From the NCBI GenBank assembly GCA_000385055.1, contig ARRL01000004.1, positions 30,004-94,003 on the forward strand: a stretch of 64,000 nucleotides of DNA, in the 5' to 3' direction. A program made the position numbers and the translations under genes. This document shows, in pieces, positions 47,600-57,419 of this stretch (position 1 is its first letter; each line of letters starts with the position of its first letter). Source of the DNA: a gamma proteobacterium SCGC AAA168-P09 (GTDB lineage: Bacteria; Pseudomonadota; Gammaproteobacteria; Magnimaribacterales; D2472). Below the pieces are notes generated by a model. It made no database searches and was not told the DNA's origin. It worked only from the letters and a program-made list of their open reading frames with translations.

Positions 47600-48331
47600 G
47601 TGATAAAAAAATTTATACATCAATTTGCTTCGCCTAAGACCTACATGTATCAGGTAGATAGGGCTTATTCGTATATTTTCTATGTCTCATTGGTATTGTA
47701 TTTGGTTTCTATTTTTTGGGGCCTATTTGTTACTCCAGAAGACTTTGTTCAAGGTAATTCTTACAGGATTATTTATCTTCATGTACCTGCTTCTTTTATT
47801 TCTCAATCCTTGTATATTGCAATGGCGATAGCCAGCGCTATTTTTCTTATATGGAAAGTTAAACTTTCAGCATATCTAGTAAGATCCATAGCTCCTATTG
47901 GTGCAATTACTACATTTATAGCGCTAATTTCAGGATCTATATGGGGAATACCCACATGGGGAACTTGGTGGGTTTGGGATGCAAGAATTGTGTCTACTTT
48001 GATACTATTTATTATGTATCTTGGCTTAATATCTTTGCATGATTCGTTTAGTAATCACGAAAAAGCAGATAAGTTTCTTTCAATATTAGTTCTTGTTGGC
48101 TCAGTAAATATACCAATCATTAAAATGTCTGTGGAGTGGTGGAGCACCCTTCATCAGCCTGCATCAATAACAATATCAGATAAACCTGCTATAGATTTAG
48201 TCATGTTGTATCCATTATTTGGTTCAATAGTTGGTTTTGCTGGAATAGTTGCGTGCTTAGTTATTCTTTCATCTAAATTACAGATACTGCGAAGAGAAAG
48301 AAATAAATCATGGATAAAAAACTATGTTTAA
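47600..48331 (+). CDS. ccmC: Heme exporter / heme lyase subunit CcmC
   Basis: WWD motif 'WGTWWVWDARIV'. GTG start. Confidence 0.93.
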   Translation: MIKKFIHQFASPKTYMYQVDRAYSYIFYVSLVLYLVSIFWGLFVTPEDFVQGNSYRIIYLHVPASFISQSLYIAMAIASAIFLIWKVKLSAYLVRSIAPIGAITTFIALISGSIWGIPTWGTWWVWDARIVSTLILFIMYLGLISLHDSFSNHEKADKFLSILVLVGSVNIPIIKMSVEWWSTLHQPASITISDKPAIDLVMLYPLFGSIVGFAGIVACLVILSSKLQILRRERNKSWIKNYV

Positions 48332-48497
48332 TTTTGAATTTAATTCTTTGGCTGAGGCTTTTTTAATGCAAAGTCAAAACGGTCAAAATCATGGTATTTT
48401 TGTTTGGTCTGTACTCATAATTGTTTTCGTATCCATTTTAGCTACATTTATTTTCTATAAAATGAGTATTAAAAAAATCACTAAGAAATTAAAATGA
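48324..48497 (+). CDS. ccmD: Heme exporter small subunit CcmD (not in the supplied ORF track; 57 aa)
   Basis: The ATG overlaps the ccmC stop by 8 nt and the TGA overlaps the ccmE ATG (ATGA). It translates to MFNFEFNSLAEAFLMQSQNGQNHGIFVWSVLIIVFVSILATFIFYK..., with the single TM segment and 'F.W' pattern typical of CcmD. Confidence 0.7.
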   Translation: MFNFEFNSLAEAFLMQSQNGQNHGIFVWSVLIIVFVSILATFIFYKMSIKKITKKLK

Positions 48498-48898
48498 AAG
48501 CTAATAGAAAACAAAGATTAATAACAGTTTTATTAATTTTAGCTACCTCAGCAACTGGCTCATTTTTAATTATTCGTGCTCTTGATTCTAATCTAGATTT
48601 TTTCTTTACACCCTCTGAAATATTTAAAGAAGAAATACCTAACAACAAAAGAATTAAAGTTGGCGGTATGGTTTTAGAAGGCTCTGTTCTTAGAGACAAG
48701 ACAAATATTTCTTTTGTAATAACAGATTATCAGGGATCAATAAATGTTGAGTTTGATGGCATTGTCCCAGATTTGTTTAAAGAGGGTAGCGGTGTTGTTG
48801 TTGTTGGCTATTTAAGAGATAAAACTCTAGTAGCAGAGGATGTTTTAGCAAAACATGATGAAAATTACATGCCTCCAAGCATCGATATAAAAAATTAA
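48494..48898 (+). CDS. ccmE: Cytochrome c-type biogenesis heme chaperone CcmE
   Basis: N-terminal anchor, OB fold and the heme-binding 'LAKHDENYMPP'. Confidence 0.93.
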   Translation: MKANRKQRLITVLLILATSATGSFLIIRALDSNLDFFFTPSEIFKEEIPNNKRIKVGGMVLEGSVLRDKTNISFVITDYQGSINVEFDGIVPDLFKEGSGVVVVGYLRDKTLVAEDVLAKHDENYMPPSIDIKN

Positions 48899-50794
48899 AT
48901 GTTAATAGAGATAGCCCATTTCCTTTCCATTCTTTCAACAGGATTATTTTTTATATGCTTTATCTTTTCATTCTTTTTAAACTCTAAAGATATATTTATT
49001 ATTAACCTAGTTTCTAGAATATATTCACATAGTTTTTTTATATTTTTATCCTCTTTCTTTGTATATGTCTGGTTAGCAATAAGTGATAACTTTAGTGTTT
49101 TATATATTGCTCAACACTCCAATATTAATCTTCCAGTTTTTTATAAAATTTCATCTATTTGGAGCGCTCATGAGGGCTCAATGTTTCTTTGGATTATTTT
49201 CTTAACAACATGGGGCGCTGTATACAATTTATTCACTTCTAATGATCAACTTTTAAAGGCAAGAACGCTTGGAGTCATATCAATAACGTCTGTTGGATTT
49301 TTATTATTTTTATTATTAACATCAAATCCATTTGAAACTATCCTTCCTGTGCCTCCAGAAAATGGTGCTGATATCAATCCAGTTTTGCAAGACCCGCTTT
49401 TGGCAATTCATCCTCCCATGTTATATATGGGTTATGTTGGCTTTGTAATAGCTTTTGGACAGGCTATAGCATTTTTATTTGAAGGTAAGCCAGAAATTAA
49501 ATGGGAAAAGCAAGTTAGATCCTGGTCACTTGCTTCATGGTCTTTTCTTACTCTAGGGATTGCACTGGGTAGTTGGTGGGCATATTACGAACTTGGCTGG
49601 GGAGGGTACTGGTTTTGGGACCCAGTTGAAAATGTTGCCTTGATGCCTTGGCTTACAGCTACTGCGTTTGTTCATTCTTTAAGTGCTTCTTCAAAATCAT
49701 CTATTTTAAGAATATGGACATTATTGCTATCCATTCTTGTCTTCTCTTTAAGTTTATTTGGAGCTTTCATAGTTAGATCTGGGATTATTGATAGTGTTCA
49801 TTCGTTTGCAAATGATCCTGAAAGAGGATTATATCTTCTTGCATTTATCGGACTTCTTGTAATGGTTTCATTATTACTCTTCTCATTTAGATTTAATCTC
49901 CTCCTTTCAAATAAAAAGATTGCCTCTTTATCAAAAGAATCATTTATATCGCTAAATAATATCTTCTTTGGAACGTTAATCTTTTCAACAATGCTAGGCG
50001 TCTTATACCCTTTAATATATGAATTTATATATAATCAAAAGATAAGTGTCGGAGCTCCTTTTTATAACGCAATTTTTGTACCTATAACCTTAATAGCATG
50101 TATTTTTTTATACTTTTCAATTGATTCAAAATGGCAGCAGAGCTTAAATATAAAATCGCTTTTTCAGCCCTTACTTATATCACTAACATTTTCAGCAACA
50201 ATAGTTATCCTAGCTTTTTTTCAGTTTTCAATAACTAATTTGTGGACATTAGCATCATTGCTAATAGGCTCAATAATTATCATGCGATATATGATTGTGA
50301 TTTATTTTTACTTTGTATACAGAAAATTTACCAATATCTTCAGCGTTATCGCACATTGTGGCTTGGGTCTCTTAATAATATCGATAGCTTTAAATGACAA
50401 TCTAAGTTCCGAAAGGGCTTTAAATATCAAAATCAATGAAACAGAAATATATAAAGATCATCAAATAACTTTAAAAAACTTGAGAATGGTTCCTGGACCA
50501 AATTTTGATTCTGTAAAAGCAGACTTTTTAATAGAAAATCCAAATGGAAAAACTTTTACCTTAACCCCAGAGAAAAGAAAATATTTTGCTCGAGGACAAG
50601 TCACTACAGAAACTGCTATTCATGCATCTTTTTTAAAAGATATTTATCTAACAATTGGTGACCAGCTTGATGACGGAAGTTGGATTGTAAATATTCAATT
50701 TAATATATTTATTAGATGGATATGGTTTTCTGCAATGATGATGGTGGTTGCAGGGTTGTTACTTGCTCATTCTTTATCGAGATCAAGGCCATGA
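48899..50794 (+). CDS. ccmF: Cytochrome c heme lyase subunit CcmF
   Basis: 631 aa polytopic protein with WWD motif 'WGGYWFWDPVEN'. Confidence 0.95.
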   Translation: MLIEIAHFLSILSTGLFFICFIFSFFLNSKDIFIINLVSRIYSHSFFIFLSSFFVYVWLAISDNFSVLYIAQHSNINLPVFYKISSIWSAHEGSMFLWIIFLTTWGAVYNLFTSNDQLLKARTLGVISITSVGFLLFLLLTSNPFETILPVPPENGADINPVLQDPLLAIHPPMLYMGYVGFVIAFGQAIAFLFEGKPEIKWEKQVRSWSLASWSFLTLGIALGSWWAYYELGWGGYWFWDPVENVALMPWLTATAFVHSLSASSKSSILRIWTLLLSILVFSLSLFGAFIVRSGIIDSVHSFANDPERGLYLLAFIGLLVMVSLLLFSFRFNLLLSNKKIASLSKESFISLNNIFFGTLIFSTMLGVLYPLIYEFIYNQKISVGAPFYNAIFVPITLIACIFLYFSIDSKWQQSLNIKSLFQPLLISLTFSATIVILAFFQFSITNLWTLASLLIGSIIIMRYMIVIYFYFVYRKFTNIFSVIAHCGLGLLIISIALNDNLSSERALNIKINETEIYKDHQITLKNLRMVPGPNFDSVKADFLIENPNGKTFTLTPEKRKYFARGQVTTETAIHASFLKDIYLTIGDQLDDGSWIVNIQFNIFIRWIWFSAMMMVVAGLLLAHSLSRSRP

Positions 50795-51321
50795 CTATTT
50801 TTATTAGATTTATAATAATTAGCACCGCTTTAATGTTTTTTACATTTTTTTATCTATACATAAACGATGATAAATACTACCCAGGAGCGGATTTCACTAC
50901 TTCTAATATGCCGGATTTTGAGATTAAAGATTTATATTCTAAAAGAGTTTTTAGTGTTAAAGACTTAGATGGTAGCTATTTAATTAATGTTTGGGCTAGC
51001 TGGTGTATAACGTGTCGAATAGAGCATAGTTTTTTAGCTAAATTGGAATCTAACAATATACCAATTATTGGCCTTAATTATAAAGATGAAAAAGATGACG
51101 CTATAAATTGGATAACAAAGTTTGGTGACCCATATAAGTATATTATTCATGATTACAAAGGAGAGCTTGCTTTAGACCTTGGAGTAACTGGTGCGCCAGA
51201 AACATTTTTATTAAATGATGGAAAAATTATTGTTCATTATAGAGGTGAGGTGAATGACATGATTTGGAATGATGTATTCAAGCCCATTATCATGAAGGAG
51301 AATATTTTTAATGCTAATTAA
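50791..51321 (+). CDS. ccmG: Thiol:disulfide interchange protein CcmG/DsbE
   Basis: 'NVWASWCITCRIEH' and 'GVTGAPETFLL'. ATG 50791 overlaps the ccmF stop (ATGA). The longer track ORF from 50716 lies inside ccmF. Confidence 0.9.
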   Translation: MTIFIRFIIISTALMFFTFFYLYINDDKYYPGADFTTSNMPDFEIKDLYSKRVFSVKDLDGSYLINVWASWCITCRIEHSFLAKLESNNIPIIGLNYKDEKDDAINWITKFGDPYKYIIHDYKGELALDLGVTGAPETFLLNDGKIIVHYRGEVNDMIWNDVFKPIIMKENIFNAN

Positions 51322-51688
51322 GATCTTTTTATTTTTCTCAATAATATTTTCTAGCTTCGCTGTAGGTGAATCTCTCTATGAGTTTGATAGCATTGAAGAT
51401 GAAAAAAGATTTTATACATTAATAAAAGAAATTAGGTGTCCAAAATGCACAAGCGGCTCTCTGGCCAGCTCAAATGCACCGGTTTCTGAAGATATAAAAT
51501 CAAAAATAATACAGTTGATAAAAGAGGGAAAATCAGATCAGGAAATAAAAGAATTTTTATCTGACAGGTTTGGCAATCAGGTTTTATATAACCCAGGTTT
51601 AAGCAAAGATACATACTTTCTGTGGTTTGCACCTGGTTTATTTTTAATGCTAATTCTTCTTTTTTTCTTTTTCAGAAAAAGAACATAA
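51311..51688 (+). CDS. ccmH: Cytochrome c-type biogenesis protein CcmH
   Basis: Signal peptide, 'IRCPKCTSGSLASSNAP' (the LRCxxC motif), 'EGKSDQEI' and a C-terminal TM segment. Confidence 0.85.
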   Translation: MLIKIFLFFSIIFSSFAVGESLYEFDSIEDEKRFYTLIKEIRCPKCTSGSLASSNAPVSEDIKSKIIQLIKEGKSDQEIKEFLSDRFGNQVLYNPGLSKDTYFLWFAPGLFLMLILLFFFFRKRT

Positions 51689-52467
51689 TGATAATAGTTT
51701 ATTTGCTAGCTTTCATTTCATTATTTCCTGTATATGCCTACTTATTGGCACCAAAAACAAAAAATAAAGGGTATATTTTTGGCATTTCATTTTTAATTTT
51801 AATTTTTTGTTTATTTTCATTCGTTGGTAAATATTCTTTTCTTGGTTCTATAAAAGAACAAGAAATAAATAATAAAATATTTTTAATAATCGAGCAGGAT
51901 AATGAAATACCAGTGAATCTATTTAACTCATTTGATGCAATTATTGATGAAGAAAGCAAACTTTATTGGGCCCAAAGTTATATACAAAAAGCTATGTCAG
52001 AGCAGAAGCTTCAAGCAGCTGAAAGTCTTATATCTTTTTCAGAAAAATACTTCATGACATCAGATGAAAAGTTTGTTTTTTATACTTTGTACACTCAACT
52101 TAGAGATTTAAAGTTCCCTATTTTTGCAAACTCTAAATTTATTCTTAACCTTTCTCCACCTGCTGATTGTGAAAATTATAAAGGAAATATTTCGTTGTTT
52201 ATTATGAATGGCCCGAACATACCTATTGCCAGTCAAAATTTCCAGAATTCTTTCGAAGTTTCATTAGGTAATAATAATTCTTCAATTCCTGGATTTGATC
52301 TTGCTTCAGCCTACCTCAATCAAGAAGCTTTGGAGCTTAAAGCATCATTATTTTGTGTTGAAAAAAACTTGGATTATTTTTCTGAAAATGCCTTATTATT
52401 TGATCAAAATAATCATATAAATACCTATAATATTAGGCCAAATGAATGGTTAAAAAGAGAACAATAG
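51688..52467 (+). CDS. ccmI: Putative CcmI (c-type cytochrome biogenesis, apocytochrome chaperone); divergent
   Basis: It is the last gene of the ccm cluster. ATG 51688 overlaps the ccmH stop (TAATG). Two N-terminal TM segments precede a soluble domain. The call rests mainly on position. Confidence 0.5.
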   Translation: MIIVYLLAFISLFPVYAYLLAPKTKNKGYIFGISFLILIFCLFSFVGKYSFLGSIKEQEINNKIFLIIEQDNEIPVNLFNSFDAIIDEESKLYWAQSYIQKAMSEQKLQAAESLISFSEKYFMTSDEKFVFYTLYTQLRDLKFPIFANSKFILNLSPPADCENYKGNISLFIMNGPNIPIASQNFQNSFEVSLGNNNSSIPGFDLASAYLNQEALELKASLFCVEKNLDYFSENALLFDQNNHINTYNIRPNEWLKREQ

Positions 52468-52500: not shown

Positions 52501-55488
52501 ATGCAGCTAAATCATATAAAACTATCAGGTTTTAAAAGTTTCGTAGATCCAACGAAGATATCTTTTCCGACAAATTTAGTGGGTGTGGTGGGGCCTAACG
52601 GTTGCGGCAAGTCTAATGTTATTGATGCTGTTAGATGGGTTCTTGGAGAACTATCTGCAAAAAATCTTCGTGGCGAATCTATGGTCGACGTTATTTTTAA
52701 TGGATCTGAAAATAGAAAACCATCTGGGCAATGCAGTATCGAGCTATTATTTGATAACTCAAGTGGAAAAATTGGTGGCGAATACGCTTCATTCAATGAA
52801 ATTTCGATTAAAAGAGTTATGACTAGAGATGCTCAATCCACCTATTTTATTAACAGCACAAAATGTAGAAGAAAAGATGTTCAAGACATATTTTTAGGAA
52901 CGGGACTAGGCCCAAGCTCATATGCAATTATTGAACAAGGCATGGTTAGTAAATTAGTAAGCGCCAAGCCTGAAGAGTTAAGAACCCATATTGAAGAGGC
53001 TGCTGGAGTTTCAAAGTATAGAGAAAGAAGAAGAGAAACTGAGAGCAGAATCAAAAAAACTAAAGAAAATTTATCTAGAGTTAAAGATATTAAAGATGAG
53101 ATTGAGAGGTTAATTAGAAGGCTCGAAAATCAAGCAAATGCTGCAGAAAAATATAATCAATTTAAAAAAGATGAAAGTCAGAAGCAAACTGATATTGCAA
53201 TACTATACTCACTTGAGGCTAAAAATAATCGAGATAAACTTCAAAAAAATCTTGATGCGTTAAATAGAGATTTAAAAATCAAGCAGGCTGAGTCAGATTC
53301 AAAACAAGCTCAAATTGATGAACATAGAACACAAAATGCTTCTGTTGTAGATGCATATGAAAATGCTCAAAAAAACTTCTATTCGATAGGTGCTGAAATA
53401 GCTAAATATGAATCGGACCTTCAAAATGTTAGCAAATTAGAAATTTCTAATACAGATGCTCTCGAAAGAGCAAAAACAAGCTATCAAGATGCTGTTGAAA
53501 AAGAATCAAGCTTTAAGGATTTAAGCCCTAAAGAAAAAGAATTAAAGCTAGATATCGCTATTGTGAAAGCTCTTGACGCTCTTAAGCAAAAAAGCATTAT
53601 TGATGTCTTAGTAGATCCCTTAGAAGAAAAAATTGCTCAAAAACAACATGAACTCGACTCAAAACAAAATATTGTAGATGCAGTTAAAGCAGACCAGACT
53701 GAGATTACTGAAGAAATTAAAATTCTTCAACAACAAAAATATTCTATTGAGGCTGATATTGCAAGACTTGAAGGGGCACTTCAGAACCTCAATAAGATAG
53801 AAGAGAACGCAAGATTAGATTTTGAGAAAGCAAGCAGTAATTATTCTGATGCATTGCAAAAAGAGGCTAATAACGAACACTTAACTCCAAAAGAAAAAGC
53901 TATTCATTTACTTGATTCTATTACCGAACTATTAAAAGCATTTGGCTCCAAAGCAGATTCATTAAACTCCAAGGTTCATGAATTAAAAGCACTGCTAATA
54001 AATATTCTTAAAATTGCATCAGATCAATCTAAAAATTATACAGCTGATTTTTTGAATAGAAAGAATCAGCTAGAAGACCTTATCAAAACAACATCTGAAG
54101 ATGCATTGTCTAAAAATAAAGAATTATCTGAGTTAAAAGAAAAGAATATAAAAATTAAAAATGAATTGGACTCTAGGTTGGAAAACCAGTTTAATGTTGA
54201 TGAAAAAATTCGAGACTTAGATAGCAGCAAATCATTAGTATCGAATGAGCTGCGAAGTTTAGAAAAGAATATTTCTGATTACAGGCTTGAGTTAAGAACG
54301 CACGAGATTAATCTAGATAATGCTTCCATGGTATTGGATAAAGCTGGTATAAGTTTATCTGAACTAGATTCATCTAAGTATGCAGGAGCAGATCTTGCAA
54401 GCCTAGAGAACTCACTAGATGAGATTCAAAAAAATATTGCTGAATTAGGGTCATTTAACCTAGCTTCACCGGAGGAATATTTAGAAAGACAAAAAGAGCT
54501 TAATAATATGATTTCAGATGGCAAGGCTAAAAAACTTGAAATTCAAAAAGTTATGTCAGATCTTGTTGAAAAAAGCTCTATTGCTGAATCAAAATTAACT
54601 GACATTAGACAAAAGCAGTCAGAATTTAATAACAGTTTAAGAGAATTAGAAAATCAAAAGTCTATTGCTGATCTAGATTTAAAAGCCATTGGTGAGAAGG
54701 TTACCAACCTTAGACTTGAGCTTAAAACCCATGAAATAAATTTAGATAATGCTAATACTAAAATTGCAGAATCTGGAGTAAATATAGAAAATATTGATTT
54801 TTCAAAGTATGAAAATATGGATATTAATGAGTTGCAGAATAGTCTGACAGACATCCAAGCTAAAATTATTCGTCTTGGAGCAATTAACTTAGCAGCTCCT
54901 GAAGAAATTGCATCCGAATCAAAAAGAAAAGAAGAATTAGATATTCAGTATAATGACTTAACCGAGGCCCTTGAAAAGCTTACTGGAGCTATCAAAACAA
55001 TTGATATAGAAACAAAGACAAGATTTCAAGATAGCTTTGATGCTATTAATAATAGAATGAAAGAGGTATTCTCAAAATTATTTGGTGGTGGTATAGCTGA
55101 GTTAGCTTTGACTGAGGATGATGCATTAAATGCTGGTGTGGTTATTATGGCAAGGCCTCCAGGTAAGAAAAATTCTTCTATTTCACAATTATCTGGTGGT
55201 GAAAAAGCTTTAACTGCTTTAGCACTAGTTTTTGCAATATTTGAACTCAATCCTGCACCATTTTGTATATTAGATGAGGTAGATGCTCCTCTTGATGATC
55301 TAAATACGATGCGTTTTATAAACATGGTTGAAGAGATGTCAAAAACAGTCCAATTTATATTTATAACTCATAACAAAGTATCAATGGAAAAGAGTGATTA
55401 TTTGATGGGTGTAACAATGCAGGAGGCCGGTGTTTCAAGAATGGTATCCGTTGATGTAAATCAAGCATTAGAATTTGCTGAGGCCTAA
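52501..55488 (+). CDS. smc: Chromosome partition protein Smc (atypically short; no recognisable hinge domain)
   Basis: N-terminal head 'IKLSGFKSF...GPNGCGKSNVIDAVRWVLGE'. C-terminal head 'LSGGEKALTALALVFAIF' and 'FCILDEVDAPLDD'. A long coiled coil lies between. Synteny with zipA. Confidence 0.88.
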   Translation: MQLNHIKLSGFKSFVDPTKISFPTNLVGVVGPNGCGKSNVIDAVRWVLGELSAKNLRGESMVDVIFNGSENRKPSGQCSIELLFDNSSGKIGGEYASFNEISIKRVMTRDAQSTYFINSTKCRRKDVQDIFLGTGLGPSSYAIIEQGMVSKLVSAKPEELRTHIEEAAGVSKYRERRRETESRIKKTKENLSRVKDIKDEIERLIRRLENQANAAEKYNQFKKDESQKQTDIAILYSLEAKNNRDKLQKNLDALNRDLKIKQAESDSKQAQIDEHRTQNASVVDAYENAQKNFYSIGAEIAKYESDLQNVSKLEISNTDALERAKTSYQDAVEKESSFKDLSPKEKELKLDIAIVKALDALKQKSIIDVLVDPLEEKIAQKQHELDSKQNIVDAVKADQTEITEEIKILQQQKYSIEADIARLEGALQNLNKIEENARLDFEKASSNYSDALQKEANNEHLTPKEKAIHLLDSITELLKAFGSKADSLNSKVHELKALLINILKIASDQSKNYTADFLNRKNQLEDLIKTTSEDALSKNKELSELKEKNIKIKNELDSRLENQFNVDEKIRDLDSSKSLVSNELRSLEKNISDYRLELRTHEINLDNASMVLDKAGISLSELDSSKYAGADLASLENSLDEIQKNIAELGSFNLASPEEYLERQKELNNMISDGKAKKLEIQKVMSDLVEKSSIAESKLTDIRQKQSEFNNSLRELENQKSIADLDLKAIGEKVTNLRLELKTHEINLDNANTKIAESGVNIENIDFSKYENMDINELQNSLTDIQAKIIRLGAINLAAPEEIASESKRKEELDIQYNDLTEALEKLTGAIKTIDIETKTRFQDSFDAINNRMKEVFSKLFGGGIAELALTEDDALNAGVVIMARPPGKKNSSISQLSGGEKALTALALVFAIFELNPAPFCILDEVDAPLDDLNTMRFINMVEEMSKTVQFIFITHNKVSMEKSDYLMGVTMQEAGVSRMVSVDVNQALEFAEA

Positions 55489-56117
55489 TGGAACAAAATA
55501 TTGATATATATCTGATTGGTTTATCTGTTCTAATTTTCTTAATTATTACATTTCTATTCATAAGAAAAATTTCAAGCTCTGGAGAGCTAAAGGTAAAAAT
55601 TGAACCTGTTACAGATTCTTTTGAGATCAAAGAGATAGATGAAATAGAGATAAAATCACAAAAAGCCTTTGACTTTAATGAGCATGATATTGAATATGAA
55701 GAACAAAAACTTGTTGTCCTTAATTTAATATCTAACGATAAATCTATTTTTGATATCGAGCAAATATATGGGTTTATGAAAAATTCAAATGCTTTTCTTA
55801 CTAACGGTTTTTTTGTAATTAAAGATACAAATAATAAAGAGTCATTTCGTATAGCAAATGCTTTAAATCCTGGCACTTTTGAAAATGAAACAGAAACTTT
55901 TGCCATTCTTTTGGCAGCAGATTTGAACAACGTATCTAATCCATTGAGTTCAGTTAAAGAAATGGTAAATTTTGCTTATCAGTTCTCTGAAAAATTTTAT
56001 GCAAATATATGTGATCAAGAAAGAATGCCTATAACAAAACAAATGATTTCACATATTGAATCCCAAGCACAGGAAATTATGAGATTAAAACAGCTCAGTG
56101 GTTTAGAAAATAAATAA
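55488..56117 (+). CDS. zipA: Cell division protein ZipA (minimal form, 209 aa)
   Basis: N-terminal TM segment 'IYLIGLSVLIFLIITFLFI', a short acidic linker and a C-terminal FtsZ-binding-like domain ('FRIANALNPGTFE...FAILL'). Start overlaps the smc stop (TAATG). Confidence 0.7.
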   Translation: MEQNIDIYLIGLSVLIFLIITFLFIRKISSSGELKVKIEPVTDSFEIKEIDEIEIKSQKAFDFNEHDIEYEEQKLVVLNLISNDKSIFDIEQIYGFMKNSNAFLTNGFFVIKDTNNKESFRIANALNPGTFENETETFAILLAADLNNVSNPLSSVKEMVNFAYQFSEKFYANICDQERMPITKQMISHIESQAQEIMRLKQLSGLENK

Positions 56118-56135: not shown

Positions 56136-57419
56136 ATGAAACCCTGGAAAATAATTCAGAAATTAGAAAGTGACAATAGTAGGTTATTTAAAGAAGGCGT
56201 TATAGAAGATAATCTTCATGATATTGTTTTACAAGAGGGGTTATCAATGTGTTTAGATGCCTTGGTAACATTTGGGGTTAAACAAGTTCCTGAATCTAAT
56301 GATGATGGAAAAGGACTTGATTGGAATAAATTTAATTCATCTGCACAGCTTTTAATAAATAGAGAGAGAACTGGCCATGCTGCTAGAGATGAAATTTTGC
56401 ATTTAATGTCTCTAGCTACTTCAGAGCAATGGAATGATTGGTATAGAAGAATTTTAATTAAGGATCTCAGATGTGGAGTAAGCCAGAAAACAGTCAATAA
56501 TGTTTCAAAAAAAATGGGATTAAAATATAGCGTACCTGTTTTCTCATGCATGTTAGCTCATGATGGCGCCAAGCATCCAAAAAAAATTCAAGGAAGATGT
56601 CTCGTTGAATATAAATATGATGGAGTTAGAGTCATAGCTATTACAAAAAACAATAGCACAACTCTTTATAGCAGGAATGGAAAAATTTTAGGTAATTTTC
56701 CTCATATAGAAGATGCATTAAATAAAAAAGAATTTAATAATTTAGTATTTGATGGAGAAGTGGTCAGTGATGACTTTCAGTCTCTTATGAAGCAGGTACA
56801 TCGAAAAACTAATGCTAAAACTGATGATGCTTATCTAGCTCTATTCGACATAATTCCTTTAGAGGAATTTAATAAAGGTAAAAGTAAGCTCAATAGTCTA
56901 GAAAGAAAAGATTTGCTTGATGATCTATCAAAAAATTTCAACTCTTGTATTAAACCGGTTGAATATGTAATCTTAGATTTTGATACCAAAGATGGCCAAA
57001 AAACATTTTCAGGTATGAATAAGAAAGCCTTAGAAGAGGGTTATGAAGGCTTAATGATTAAACCAATTAACGATATATACGAATCTAAAAGAAGTCACGC
57101 TTGGCTTAAGATAAAACCTTTTATAGAAGTTACTCTAAAGGTCACTCAAATTCAAGAAGGTACTGGCAAGCATGAGGGTAAGCTTGGAGCATTTTCAGTT
57201 GAAGGAGAGGACGATGGTAAGTTTTTCTCTTTGAGTGTTGGAAGTGGTCTCACAGACGACGATAGAGAAAAATTTTGGAGCGCTAGAGATTCTTTAATAG
57301 GCCAATTAATTGAAATCAGAGCCGATGCTATAACTCAAAGTATTGAAGGAGAGCACTTCAGCTTAAGATTCCCTCGTTTTAAAACTTTTAGAGGCTTTGA
57401 ACCAGGCGAAAAAATCTAA
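56136..57419 (+). CDS. ATP-dependent DNA ligase (nucleotidyltransferase KxDG family), not LigA
   Basis: Motif I 'EYKYDGVR' (Lys160, nt 56613-56615), motif III 'FDGEVV', motif IV 'EGLMIKP', motif V 'WLKIKP', and an OB domain with motif VI-like 'LRFPRFKTFRG'. An N-terminal extension of about 140 aa is present. Confidence 0.9.
   Translation: MKPWKIIQKLESDNSRLFKEGVIEDNLHDIVLQEGLSMCLDALVTFGVKQVPESNDDGKGLDWNKFNSSAQLLINRERTGHAARDEILHLMSLATSEQWNDWYRRILIKDLRCGVSQKTVNNVSKKMGLKYSVPVFSCMLAHDGAKHPKKIQGRCLVEYKYDGVRVIAITKNNSTTLYSRNGKILGNFPHIEDALNKKEFNNLVFDGEVVSDDFQSLMKQVHRKTNAKTDDAYLALFDIIPLEEFNKGKSKLNSLERKDLLDDLSKNFNSCIKPVEYVILDFDTKDGQKTFSGMNKKALEEGYEGLMIKPINDIYESKRSHAWLKIKPFIEVTLKVTQIQEGTGKHEGKLGAFSVEGEDDGKFFSLSVGSGLTDDDREKFWSARDSLIGQLIEIRADAITQSIEGEHFSLRFPRFKTFRGFEPGEKI

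What the first reader, a model, noticed from the sequence alone, without database searches (positions are those of the whole stretch)
52501..55488. SMC with full-length coiled-coil arms but no recognisable hinge domain
Seen in sequence: the protein is 995 aa with canonical heads. These are Walker A 'GPNGCGKS', the signature 'LSGGEKALTALALVF' and Walker B 'FCILDEVDAP'. Residues ~170-830 are uninterrupted E/K/Q/L/N-rich, coiled-coil-like sequence with very few Gly or Pro. Nothing resembles the ~150-170-aa globular hinge with its Gly-rich dimerisation motifs. There is no Cys between aa 123 and 921, so a Rad50-style CxxC zinc hook is also absent. Established knowledge: bacterial Smc is typically ~1150-1200 aa, and the hinge mediates dimerisation and DNA transactions. 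Arithmetic: 995 aa is about a normal Smc minus one hinge. Inference: this is either a hinge-less SMC that dimerises through an apex of new type, or an extremely diverged mini-hinge around aa ~480-520.
Basis: partly seen in the sequence, partly recalled or inferred. Interest (0 to 1): 0.72.

Follow-up and report, generated by a model that had tools for sequence, protein, structure and literature searches.

The report
Hinge-less Smc of SAR86 bacteria
The chromosome-organising Smc ATPase of the abundant marine SAR86 bacteria has truly lost its hinge domain, ends in a small helical hairpin instead, and in this genome had both arms re-lengthened by matched internal duplications.

Summary
ORF 52501-55488 encodes a 995-aa Smc with intact ATPase motifs and no hinge. 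Pfam finds none. A custom hinge HMM that scores controls at 62-199 bits gives -6.4 bits here. AlphaFold2 predicts residues 170-861 as helix only.

It is not an assembly error. More than 240 protein clusters and 12 SAR86 species genomes carry intact hinge-less versions in the conserved slot ccmFGHI-smc-zipA-ligase-SLT, where related gammaproteobacteria have a 1160-aa Smc.

Most SAR86 species have a 727/732-aa mini-Smc that lacks about 440 central positions: the hinge and both distal arms. The 995-aa form is that protein plus one ancient tandem duplication in each arm (120 aa and 143 aa). The C-arm unit carries a second joint-like module.

The apex (aa 460-514) is a conserved "LSPKEKA"-tip helix, loop and very hydrophobic return helix, with no Cys/His hook. 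I infer, but have not shown, that it dimerises as a helical bundle.

Whether SAR86 keeps ScpAB is unresolved.

A 2025 paper reported hinge-less SMCs in the ocean and assigned them to Actinobacteria. The SAR86 case and the arm duplications appear undescribed.

The parts
52501..55488 (+). smc gene, 995 aa, hinge-less long form
   Evidence: ORF; TIGR02168 855 bits; Pfam SMC_N, no hinge
52501..52995 (+). N-terminal half of the ATPase head (aa 1-165), Walker A at aa 31-38 (52591-52614)
   Evidence: Mean pairwise identity among 13 SAR86 sequences is 0.89. Invariant motifs.
53008..53877 (+). N-terminal arm helix (aa 170-459), with one break at aa 334-343
   Evidence: AF2 secondary structure, pLDDT 70-89
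53278..53637 (+). N-arm tandem repeat, copy 1 (aa ~260-379). It contains the 'pseudo-apex' DLSPKEKELKLDIAIVKALDAL (aa 340-364, nt 53518-53592).
   Evidence: Offset-120 diagonal is significant over aa 260-364 vs 380-484. The short forms lack 120 aa here (aligned as 311-430 or 314-433). The pseudo-apex block is 0.78 identical among the long forms.
53638..53997 (+). N-arm tandem repeat, copy 2 (aa ~380-499), which includes the real apex tip
53878..54042 (+). Apex element (aa 460-514): break HLTP, tip helix 464-480, variable loop 481-487, hydrophobic return helix 488-506, and the conserved QSK at 509-511
   Evidence: AF2 breaks at 460-463 and 481-482, with the equivalent in the short form. P463, E465, K466, A467 and Q509-K511 are invariant across 13 SAR86 sequences. 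It is the most hydrophobic 19-aa window of the arm, z=2.8.
54043..54471 (+). C-arm tandem repeat, copy 1 (aa 515-657): about 100 aa of coil plus a 'pseudo-joint' (aa 615-657, nt 54343-54471) ending in LGSFNLASP
   Evidence: Offset-143 diagonal is significant from aa 515 to about 664 and collapses outside that range. This is exactly the segment absent from all short forms. A DNA trace survives: 54283-54324 vs 54712-54753, 79% identity, spacing 429 nt.
54472..54900 (+). C-arm tandem repeat, copy 2 (aa 658-800): about 100 aa of coil plus the genuine head-proximal joint (aa 758-800, nt 54772-54900) ending in LGAINLAAP
   Evidence: aligns to canonical profile positions 830-976
55006..55485 (+). C-terminal half of the ATPase head (aa 836-995): signature LSGGEKALTALALVF (55189-55233) and Walker B FCILDEVDAP (55261-55290)
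   Evidence: Identity 0.80 among SAR86 sequences. Foldseek matches to Bacillus and Geobacillus Smc heads at 40-53% identity.
47600..52467 (+). Upstream ccmC/E/F/G/H and a ccmI-position ORF (synteny anchor)
   Evidence: Pfam. The same order occurs upstream of canonical smc in related gammaproteobacteria.
55488..56117 (+). zipA (209 aa). Its start overlaps the smc stop (TAATG).
   Evidence: Pfam ZipA_C; junction; synteny
56136..57419 (+). ATP-dependent DNA ligase sitting in the slot where relatives have NAD-dependent LigA
   Evidence: Pfam

Best explanation
This is the vertically inherited Smc (condensin ATPase) of a SAR86 gammaproteobacterium.

In an ancestor, an internal, hinge-centred deletion removed the hinge and the distal part of both arms, about 440 canonical positions. 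That left a 727/732-aa 'mini-Smc'. Its two arm helices are joined by a short helical hairpin: a 'LSPKEKA' tip helix, a variable loop and a very hydrophobic return helix.

In one SAR86 subclade, which includes this genome, each arm then acquired one tandem duplication. The N-arm gained 120 aa and the C-arm gained 143 aa, made of about 100 aa of coil plus a copy of the joint. This brought the arms back to about 310-345 residues, close to the canonical length. The old tip copy now lies opposite the pseudo-joint in mid-arm.

Shown: absence of the hinge, orthology, conservation, the duplications, and the all-helical centre.

Inferred: the protein still works as an ATP-driven chromosome-organising dimer. 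The hydrophobic apex hairpins of two subunits pack into a helical bundle that replaces the hinge as the constitutive dimer interface, as the coiled-coil tip does in RecN and as a Rad50 hook can do in engineered Smc. The duplications were selected because they add roughly one coiled-coil super-helical period to both strands at once.
For: Hinge absent:
- Pfam is negative.
- The custom hinge HMM gives -6.4 bits against 62-199 bits for controls.
- The AF2 models of the long and short forms are all-helical between the heads.
- Mapping to a canonical profile is clean: short form 1-373 aligns to 1-374, and 384-731 aligns to 817-1164.

Real and conserved:
- More than 240 clusters have fixed lengths of 995 or 732 aa.
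- There are intact ORFs in 12 SAR86 species genomes.
- Heads are 0.80-0.89 identical, and all ATPase motifs are invariant.

Orthology:
- TIGR02168 scores above its cutoff.
- The ccm-smc-zipA-ligase-SLT order is the same as around canonical smc in Cellvibrionales, Porticoccaceae and Alcanivorax.
- SAR86 Smc is monophyletic within gammaproteobacterial Smc.

Duplications:
- Self-diagonal scores are 108 and 87, against 42+-6 in shuffles.
- Unit boundaries are exact, and the gaps are identical in all ten short forms.
- Orthologous copy identity (45-78%) exceeds paralogous identity (32-38%).

Apex:
- Conserved motif.
- It is the most hydrophobic segment of the arm in both forms and in all species.

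Precedent that a hinge is replaceable and that arm length is constrained in steps of about 99 aa: PMC5344682.
Against: - Dimerisation at the apex was not tested. No multimer prediction was possible and I had no model coordinates.
- The AF2 models have low overall confidence (pLDDT 62-64, pTM about 0.3, poor heads). The arm pairing register I describe is deduced from helix lengths, not from contacts.
- The apex is only about as conserved (0.53) as the arms (0.45-0.66).
- The added lengths (120 and 143 aa; about 100-116 aa of coil) match the 99-aa period only roughly. The short-form arm (about 200 aa) does not sit on a published length mode.
- Presence of ScpA/ScpB in SAR86 could not be established.
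- The long form is paraphyletic in the tree (supported by the ligase marker). The history therefore needs either a precise double reversion or recombination.
Confidence: 0.62

Rival explanations
1. The two subunits are not joined at the apex. The complex is held together only by ATP-dependent head engagement, by a kleisin bridge, and/or by side-by-side zipping of the arms into a rod. It would then be an open-ended 'V' or rod that cannot form a closed tripartite ring.
For: No dimerisation motif of a known type is present. The apex is not more conserved than the arms. The apex loop varies in length by 5 aa.
Against: The apex return helix is the most hydrophobic stretch of the arm in every species. 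Hydrophobic residues lie beyond a simple a/d stripe (L498, L499, I500, I502, L503, I505), which suggests packing against more than one helix. Every characterised SMC-like protein has a constitutive distal dimer interface, whether hinge, hook or coiled-coil tip (established knowledge). Arm length is kept exactly fixed within each form.
Confidence: 0.25
2. The centre holds an extremely diverged mini-hinge that descends from the canonical hinge.
For: A conserved non-coiled-coil element exists at aa 460-514.
Against: The family-specific hinge HMM gives negative scores for all SAR86 forms while detecting every control. The canonical profile aligns up to position ~374 and resumes at ~817, skipping the hinge at about 490-680. 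The predicted structure is helical only, with no beta strands. The element is about 55 aa, against about 170-190 aa for a hinge.
Confidence: 0.04
3. It is a paralogue with another role (RecN-like or Rad50-like repair, or defence), while chromosome organisation in SAR86 is done by another condensin encoded elsewhere.
For: Whole SAR86 genomes could not be inspected. NCBI labels some members 'RecF' or 'AAA family ATPase'.
Against: It occupies the exact smc slot between ccmHI and zipA-ligase, as in relatives. It passes the Smc equivalog cutoff. Its nearest relatives are canonical gammaproteobacterial Smc at 40-50% identity. It branches where the species tree would predict.
Confidence: 0.06
4. Assembly deletion or pseudogene.
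For: None found.
Against: Identical architecture occurs in hundreds of independent contigs, single-cell genomes and MAGs, with intact ORFs and invariant catalytic motifs.
Confidence: 0.01

Closest known systems
Bacterial Smc of the Smc-ScpAB condensin (TIGR02168; e.g. Bacillus subtilis Smc)
   Same: Head domains with all ATPase motifs, the neck, the joint motif (LGxxNLAAxEE), the antiparallel arm architecture, and the genomic position (smc-zipA-ligase). Head identity to Bacillus/Geobacillus Smc is 40-53%.
   Different: No hinge domain. The central ~440 canonical positions are deleted. The arms end in a ~55-aa helical hairpin. The long form has a duplicated joint-like module in mid-arm. Partner proteins ScpA/ScpB have not been confirmed in SAR86.
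'Hinge-less' oceanic SMC clade reported from OM-RGC/Tara metagenomes (PMC12153180, Environ Microbiome 2025)
   Same: Abundant marine SMC homologues with an SMC head and a coiled-coil hairpin, with no hinge and no CxxC hook. They are annotated COG1196 and are present in GORG-Tropics single-cell genomes.
   Different: That clade was assigned to Actinomycetes and branches with actinobacterial Smc. The paper mentions neither SAR86 nor Gammaproteobacteria, gives no synteny, and describes no short/long forms or arm duplications. I could not compare sequences because only IDs are in the supplement. Identity of the two clades is therefore unresolved, and an independent loss is more likely.
Engineered Mini-Smc and Smc(Zn-hook) chimeras of B. 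subtilis (Burmann et al. 2017, PMC5344682)
   Same: These are shortened arms, with the hinge replaced by an unrelated dimerisation module, that still support function. Function depends on discrete arm lengths with a period of about 99 aa. The SAR86 short and long forms look like natural counterparts.
   Different: They are laboratory constructs. The replacement there is a Rad50 zinc hook, whereas here it is a metal-free helical hairpin. The SAR86 length step is 120/143 aa, including a joint copy.
RecN
   Same: An SMC-like ATPase without a hinge or zinc hook. According to established structural work (recalled, not tested here), it dimerises through the distal end of its coiled coil.
   Different: RecN is about 550 aa with much shorter arms, is a DNA-repair protein and belongs to a different family. 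TIGR00634 scores only 29 bits here.
Rad50/SbcC
   Same: SMC-like head plus a long antiparallel coiled coil without an SMC hinge.
   Different: Rad50/SbcC dimerise through a CxxC zinc hook. Here there is no Cys between aa 123 and 921 and no conserved His. Rad50 models score far below their cutoffs.

Membership tests
Smc (Smc-ScpAB condensin ATPase, TIGR02168) | Whole-protein match to the Smc equivalog model above the curated cutoff | tested here: met
   855 bits against a cutoff of 567; 1052 bits to my canonical gammaproteobacterial Smc profile
Smc (Smc-ScpAB condensin ATPase, TIGR02168) | ABC-type head with Walker A, Q-loop, signature motif, Walker B, D-loop and H-loop | tested here: met
   GPNGCGKS, IIEQGM, LSGGEKA, ILDEVDAPLD and ITHNK are all invariant across the family
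Smc (Smc-ScpAB condensin ATPase, TIGR02168) | Long intramolecular antiparallel coiled-coil arm with a head-proximal joint | tested here: met
   AF2 shows helices 170-333, 344-459, 483-614 and 657-757, with joint 758-800. The joint motif LGAINLAAPEEI is invariant. The pairing register is inferred.
Smc (Smc-ScpAB condensin ATPase, TIGR02168) | Central globular hinge domain (PF06470) mediating dimerisation | tested here: not met
   Pfam finds none at E<=10. The custom hinge HMM gives -6.4 bits against 62-199 bits for controls. There is no beta structure in the centre. Canonical profile positions ~375-816 are absent.
Smc (Smc-ScpAB condensin ATPase, TIGR02168) | Orthologous genomic position and vertical descent | tested here: met
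   ccmFGHI-smc-zipA-ligase-SLT is shared with canonical-Smc relatives. Phylogeny agrees.
Smc (Smc-ScpAB condensin ATPase, TIGR02168) | Works with kleisin ScpA and ScpB encoded in the same genome | tested here: inconclusive
   Neither gene is in the window or within ~20 kb around smc in 12 SAR86 genomes. The metagenome motif scan and ScpA search gave no SAR86-linked hit.
Rad50/SbcC | CxxC zinc hook at the coiled-coil apex | tested here: not met
   Cys occurs only at 35, 78, 122 and 922. There is no conserved Cys or His in the apex across species.
RecN | Match to TIGR00634 above cutoff; ~550 aa with short arms | tested here: not met
   29 bits against a cutoff of 408
MukB / MksB (JetC) | MukB-type head and small hinge, adjacent mukE/mukF (mksE/mksF) genes | tested here: not met
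   No such family appears among the Pfam or NCBIfam hits. The neighbours are ccm genes and zipA.
Published hinge-less oceanic SMC clade (PMC12153180) | Sequence membership in that cluster (OM-RGC cluster 9, Actinomycetes-assigned) | not testable with these tools
   Only sequence IDs are held in the supplement. The architecture is the same but the taxonomic assignment differs.

The most novel reading that the evidence does not exclude
SAR86, one of the most abundant bacterial lineages of the surface ocean, runs its chromosome with a natural mini-Smc that needs no hinge. A metal-free helical hairpin serves as the dimer interface. Arm length switches between two discrete states (about 200 and about 330 residues) by concerted gain or loss of one module in each arm, including a spare joint. 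This would be natural evidence for the quantised arm-length rule seen in engineered Smc. A graded series of hinge-centred deletions in related lineages (941, 906, 827, 810 and 732 aa) would document stepwise miniaturisation of an SMC motor during genome streamlining.
Probability: 0.35. Interest if true: 0.8.

Novelty: new variant of a known kind. Interest (0 to 1): 0.66.

Why it matters
The hinge is treated as a defining and essential part of SMC proteins. It is the constitutive dimer interface and is implicated in DNA binding and loading.

A whole, very abundant bacterial clade keeps a well-conserved, catalytically intact Smc without it. This shows that the hinge is dispensable in nature, not only in engineered chimeras. 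It also offers a minimal SMC motor of 727-732 aa for structural and single-molecule work.

The pair of natural alleles, short and long, differs by one matched module per arm. That makes a ready-made test of how arm length, the joint and the apex contribute to loop extrusion or DNA entrapment.

It also matters for annotation. These proteins are currently labelled 'AAA family ATPase' or even 'RecF', so SAR86 can appear to lack Smc.

Tried and rejected
1. BLASTP self-comparison reported only the identity hit. I replaced it with diagonal scoring.
2. I first phased the C-arm repeat as 573-715/716-858 from a local alignment. The extension beyond aa ~664 is noise, and the true unit is 515-657/658-800.
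3. I considered a metal site made of E465/H469/D472 on one helix face. I rejected it because H469 varies (H/R/N/K) across species.
4. A Pfam negative as proof of hinge loss was rejected as insufficient, because Pfam also misses the hinge in canonical P0128 and P0194.
5. ScpA/ScpB in SAR86 led nowhere decisive:
   - Regex and phmmer on the window plus 12 SAR86 loci found none.
   - Raw tetranucleotide correlation only tracked GC content, and the GC-corrected version discriminated weakly.
   - The last database search, with the ScpA of L174, gave no contig-length match with Smc-bearing SAR86 contigs.
   - Overall the result is inconclusive. It is not evidence of absence.
6. Cross-matching with the published hinge-less clade failed because the supplement holds only IDs.
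7. Foldseek of the full model against the PDB returned SMC-family structures only, with uninformative TM-scores for such an elongated, low-confidence model.
8. My first tree script and first self-comparison script timed out and were rewritten.
Full report
**1. Observation**

The ORF 52501-55488 (+) encodes 995 aa. Cys occurs only at 35, 78, 122 and 922. Residues 170-830 hold 11 Gly and 5 Pro.

Pfam finds SMC_N spanning residues 3-979 and no SMC_hinge hit even at E<=10. The NCBIfam Smc equivalog TIGR02168 scores 855 bits, above its cutoff of 567.

**2. Is the hinge really gone?**

A Pfam negative is not enough, because Pfam also fails on two canonical 1147-1164-aa relatives. I therefore aligned 133 canonical gammaproteobacterial Smc from the representative search and built a 187-position hinge HMM. 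I searched it with filters off.

| Group | Score |
|---|---|
| Held-out canonical proteins, including the two Pfam missed | 62-174 bits |
| Two ~1000-aa relatives with short arms (P0142, P0223) | 155-199 bits |
| Window protein | -6.4 bits |
| Every other SAR86 version | <=0.6 bits |

A full-length canonical profile of 1165 positions aligns the common SAR86 form as 1-373 to 1-374 and 384-731 to 817-1164. About 440 central positions, holding the hinge and both distal arms, are simply missing.

AlphaFold2 on the 995-aa protein has poor heads because the MSA is shallow, but arm pLDDT is 75-90. It predicts only helices from 170 to 861. Breaks fall at 334-343, 460-463, 481-482, 615-631, 651-656, 758-774 and 797-799.

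The 732-aa form gives helix 170-336, a break, an 18-aa tip helix 343-360, a 5-aa loop, a return helix 366-494, and the joint at 495-536. Neither model has a strand between the heads. Foldseek of the model returns only SMC-family structures.

**3. Not an artefact, and whose gene it is**

The big protein database holds more than 120 clusters at 78-100% identity, all exactly 995 aa, from ENA, JGI, NCBI and Logan. It holds more than 120 further clusters that are all exactly 732 aa, one of them on a 1.37-Mb contig.

In the species-representative genome collection the closest 12 genomes are all SAR86 cluster bacteria, many of them single-cell genomes. They carry intact ORFs of 995/996 aa (2 genomes) or 727/732 aa (10 genomes). 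The next-best genomes (Cellvibrionaceae, Porticoccaceae, Alcanivorax, Halieaceae and others) have genes of about 1160 aa.

The gene order ccmF-ccmH-(ccmI)-smc-zipA-ligase-SLT is shared between SAR86 and those relatives. The hinge-less gene is therefore the positional orthologue of smc.

An NJ tree on 689 shared columns makes SAR86 Smc monophyletic (100%). Its sisters are two other hinge-less forms of 810 and 827 aa (96%).

**4.

Diagonal self-comparison gives two signals, at offset 143 (score 108) and offset 120 (score 87), against 42+-6 for shuffles.

- **C-arm.** Similarity runs from aa 515 to about 664 and collapses on both sides. The unit is 515-657 | 658-800, and each copy is about 100 aa of coil followed by a 42-aa joint-type module (RLELxTHEINLDNA...LGxxNLAxPEE).
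- **N-arm.** The signal covers 260-364 vs 380-484 and includes the tip motif.

A DNA remnant survives: 54283-54324 vs 54712-54753, 79% identity, 429 nt apart.

Against the 732-aa form the window protein aligns in three clean blocks: 1-310, 431-514 and 658-995. The two gaps are 120 and 143 aa. All ten short species versions show the same two gaps.

In the three long forms, each copy is more similar to its orthologue (45-78%) than to its paralogue (32-38%). The duplications therefore happened once and long ago. No other hinge-less or canonical relative has repeats above background.

**5. Which form came first**

Basal SAR86 lineages and the outgroups lack the repeats, so the short form is ancestral by parsimony.

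The long forms are not monophyletic, however. {window, L001} groups with a 732-aa clade at 95% bootstrap, to the exclusion of long-form L002. An independent marker agrees. The window, L001 and that 732-aa clade share an ATP-dependent ligase in the LigA slot, while L002 and the basal lineages keep NAD-dependent LigA.

Either the 732-aa clade lost both extra units again precisely, or alleles recombined among SAR86 lineages. This is unresolved.

**6. Anatomy and inferred folding**

Taking the turn at G482/S483, the pairing works out as follows:

| N-arm element | Opposite C-arm element |
|---|---|
| Tip helix 464-480 | Start of the return helix (from 488) |
| Helix 344-459 (116 aa) | Residues 500-614 (115 aa) |
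| Break 334-343, next to the retained 'pseudo-apex' DLSPKEKELKLDIAIVKALDAL | Pseudo-joint 615-657 |
| Residues ~234-333 | Residues 658-757, as in the short form |

The pseudo-apex is 0.78 identical among the long forms.

Each arm thus gains about 100-116 aa of coiled coil plus a joint-like discontinuity. By the convention of Burmann et al. the arms are about 202 aa (short form) and about 334 aa (long form). Those authors found natural modes at 163, 238, 341, 423 and 515 aa and a functional period of about 99 aa. The long form sits on the canonical mode. The short form does not sit cleanly on any mode.

This register is deduced from helix lengths, not from model contacts, because I had no coordinates.

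**7. The apex**

Across 13 SAR86 sequences the motif is as follows:
- (L/I)SP(K/S)EKA;
- an amphipathic tip helix;
- a variable loop with a 5-aa indel;
- K(A/V)xxLKxLLxxI(L/F)xI...QSK.

P463, E465, K466, A467 and Q509-K511 are invariant. No Cys is present and H469 is not conserved, so a metal hook is excluded.

The return helix 488-506 is the most hydrophobic 19-aa window of the whole arm (47% LIVMFW, z=2.8). So is its equivalent in the short form (z=2.5), and this holds in all species. Hydrophobic residues extend beyond an a/d stripe, which fits packing against additional helices.

I therefore propose a helical-bundle apex-apex dimer. This is inference. Conservation of the apex (0.53) is not higher than that of the arms.

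**8. Partners**

Genuine gammaproteobacterial scpA-scpB pairs occur in six contigs that I hold, always in the order (tsaC)-scpA-scpB-rluB. None lies in the window or in the ~20 kb around smc in the 12 SAR86 genomes.

An AT-biased motif scan of metagenome contigs and a final ScpA search produced nothing attributable to SAR86. Whether SAR86 keeps ScpAB, or has another condensin, remains open.

**9. Wider pattern**

Other gammaproteobacterial clusters of 810, 827, 906 and 941 aa are also hinge-less by the custom HMM. They are recurrent in metagenomes: the 906-aa cluster has 151 members and the 941-aa cluster has 30.

On the canonical profile their deletions are all roughly centred on the hinge:

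| Form | Canonical profile positions deleted |
|---|---|
| 941 aa (P0265) | 455-722 |
| 906 aa (P0233) | 421-709 |
| 827 aa (P0159) | 413-735 |
| 810 aa (P0132) | 366-756 |
| SAR86 short form (727/732 aa) | ~375-816 |

This looks like either stepwise shortening after one hinge loss or repeated symmetric deletions. The tree does not resolve which.

**10. Literature**

PMC12153180 (2025) already reported an abundant oceanic clade of 'hinge-less' SMC without CxxC. It assigned the clade to Actinomycetes and proposed that it represents new SMC biology.

A full-text search for hinge-less/hingeless, SMC and SAR86 found no paper that describes the SAR86 Smc.

**11. Verdict**

The finding is real. It is a natural, clade-wide, hinge-less variant of Smc, with an unexpected history of miniaturisation and re-extension.

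It is not categorically new, because hinge-less oceanic SMCs and hinge-replaceable engineered Smc are published. The SAR86 instance, its helical apex and the matched arm duplications do appear new and are directly testable.

Noticed in passing
window 56136-57419 (+); L001, L004, L006, L007, L011 vs L002, L003, L009, L010, L012: The slot downstream of zipA holds NAD-dependent LigA (~680-725 aa) in related gammaproteobacteria and in some SAR86 genomes. Here and in one SAR86 subclade it holds a 427-aa ATP-dependent DNA ligase (Pfam DNA_ligase_A_M + DNA_ligase_OB_2). This looks like an in-situ displacement of the normally essential LigA.
   Followed up: partly
P0431 (= NCBI MAH79944.1), P0002, P0020, P0346: Public annotation calls these hinge-less Smc proteins 'recombination protein RecF' or 'AAA family ATPase'. 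As a result SAR86 genomes can look as if they lack Smc.
   Followed up: no
window 55486-55490: The smc stop codon overlaps the zipA start codon (TAATG), which suggests translational coupling of smc and zipA.
   Followed up: no
window 51622-52467 (+): The 281-aa ORF in the position of ccmI has no Pfam match. It is conserved upstream of smc in all SAR86 loci (E 1e-23 to 1e-95).
   Followed up: partly
P0142 (990 aa), P0223 (1003 aa): These gammaproteobacterial Smc keep a clear hinge but lack about 70-80 residues of each arm (canonical profile 387-454 and 725-807). They are natural short-armed Smc, distinct from the hinge-less series.
   Followed up: partly
P0265, P0233, P0159, P0132 (941, 906, 827, 810 aa): Further hinge-less Smc forms from unnamed marine Gammaproteobacteria have progressively larger hinge-centred deletions. 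Their taxonomy and their relationship to SAR86 are unresolved.
   Followed up: partly
L174 1-9545 (metagenome contig, GC 28.9%): This AT-rich marine gammaproteobacterial contig has tsaC-scpA-scpB-rluB followed by a 998-aa and a 296-aa ORF of unusual, repeat- or ankyrin-like composition. It may come from a host-associated lineage and is not SAR86.
   Followed up: no
L052 4330-6754; L068 6643-9178: In Marinobacter-type genomes scpA-scpB-rluB lie only about 1-3 kb upstream of smc. SAR86 and the Cellvibrionales-type relatives have the ccm operon there instead.
   Followed up: no
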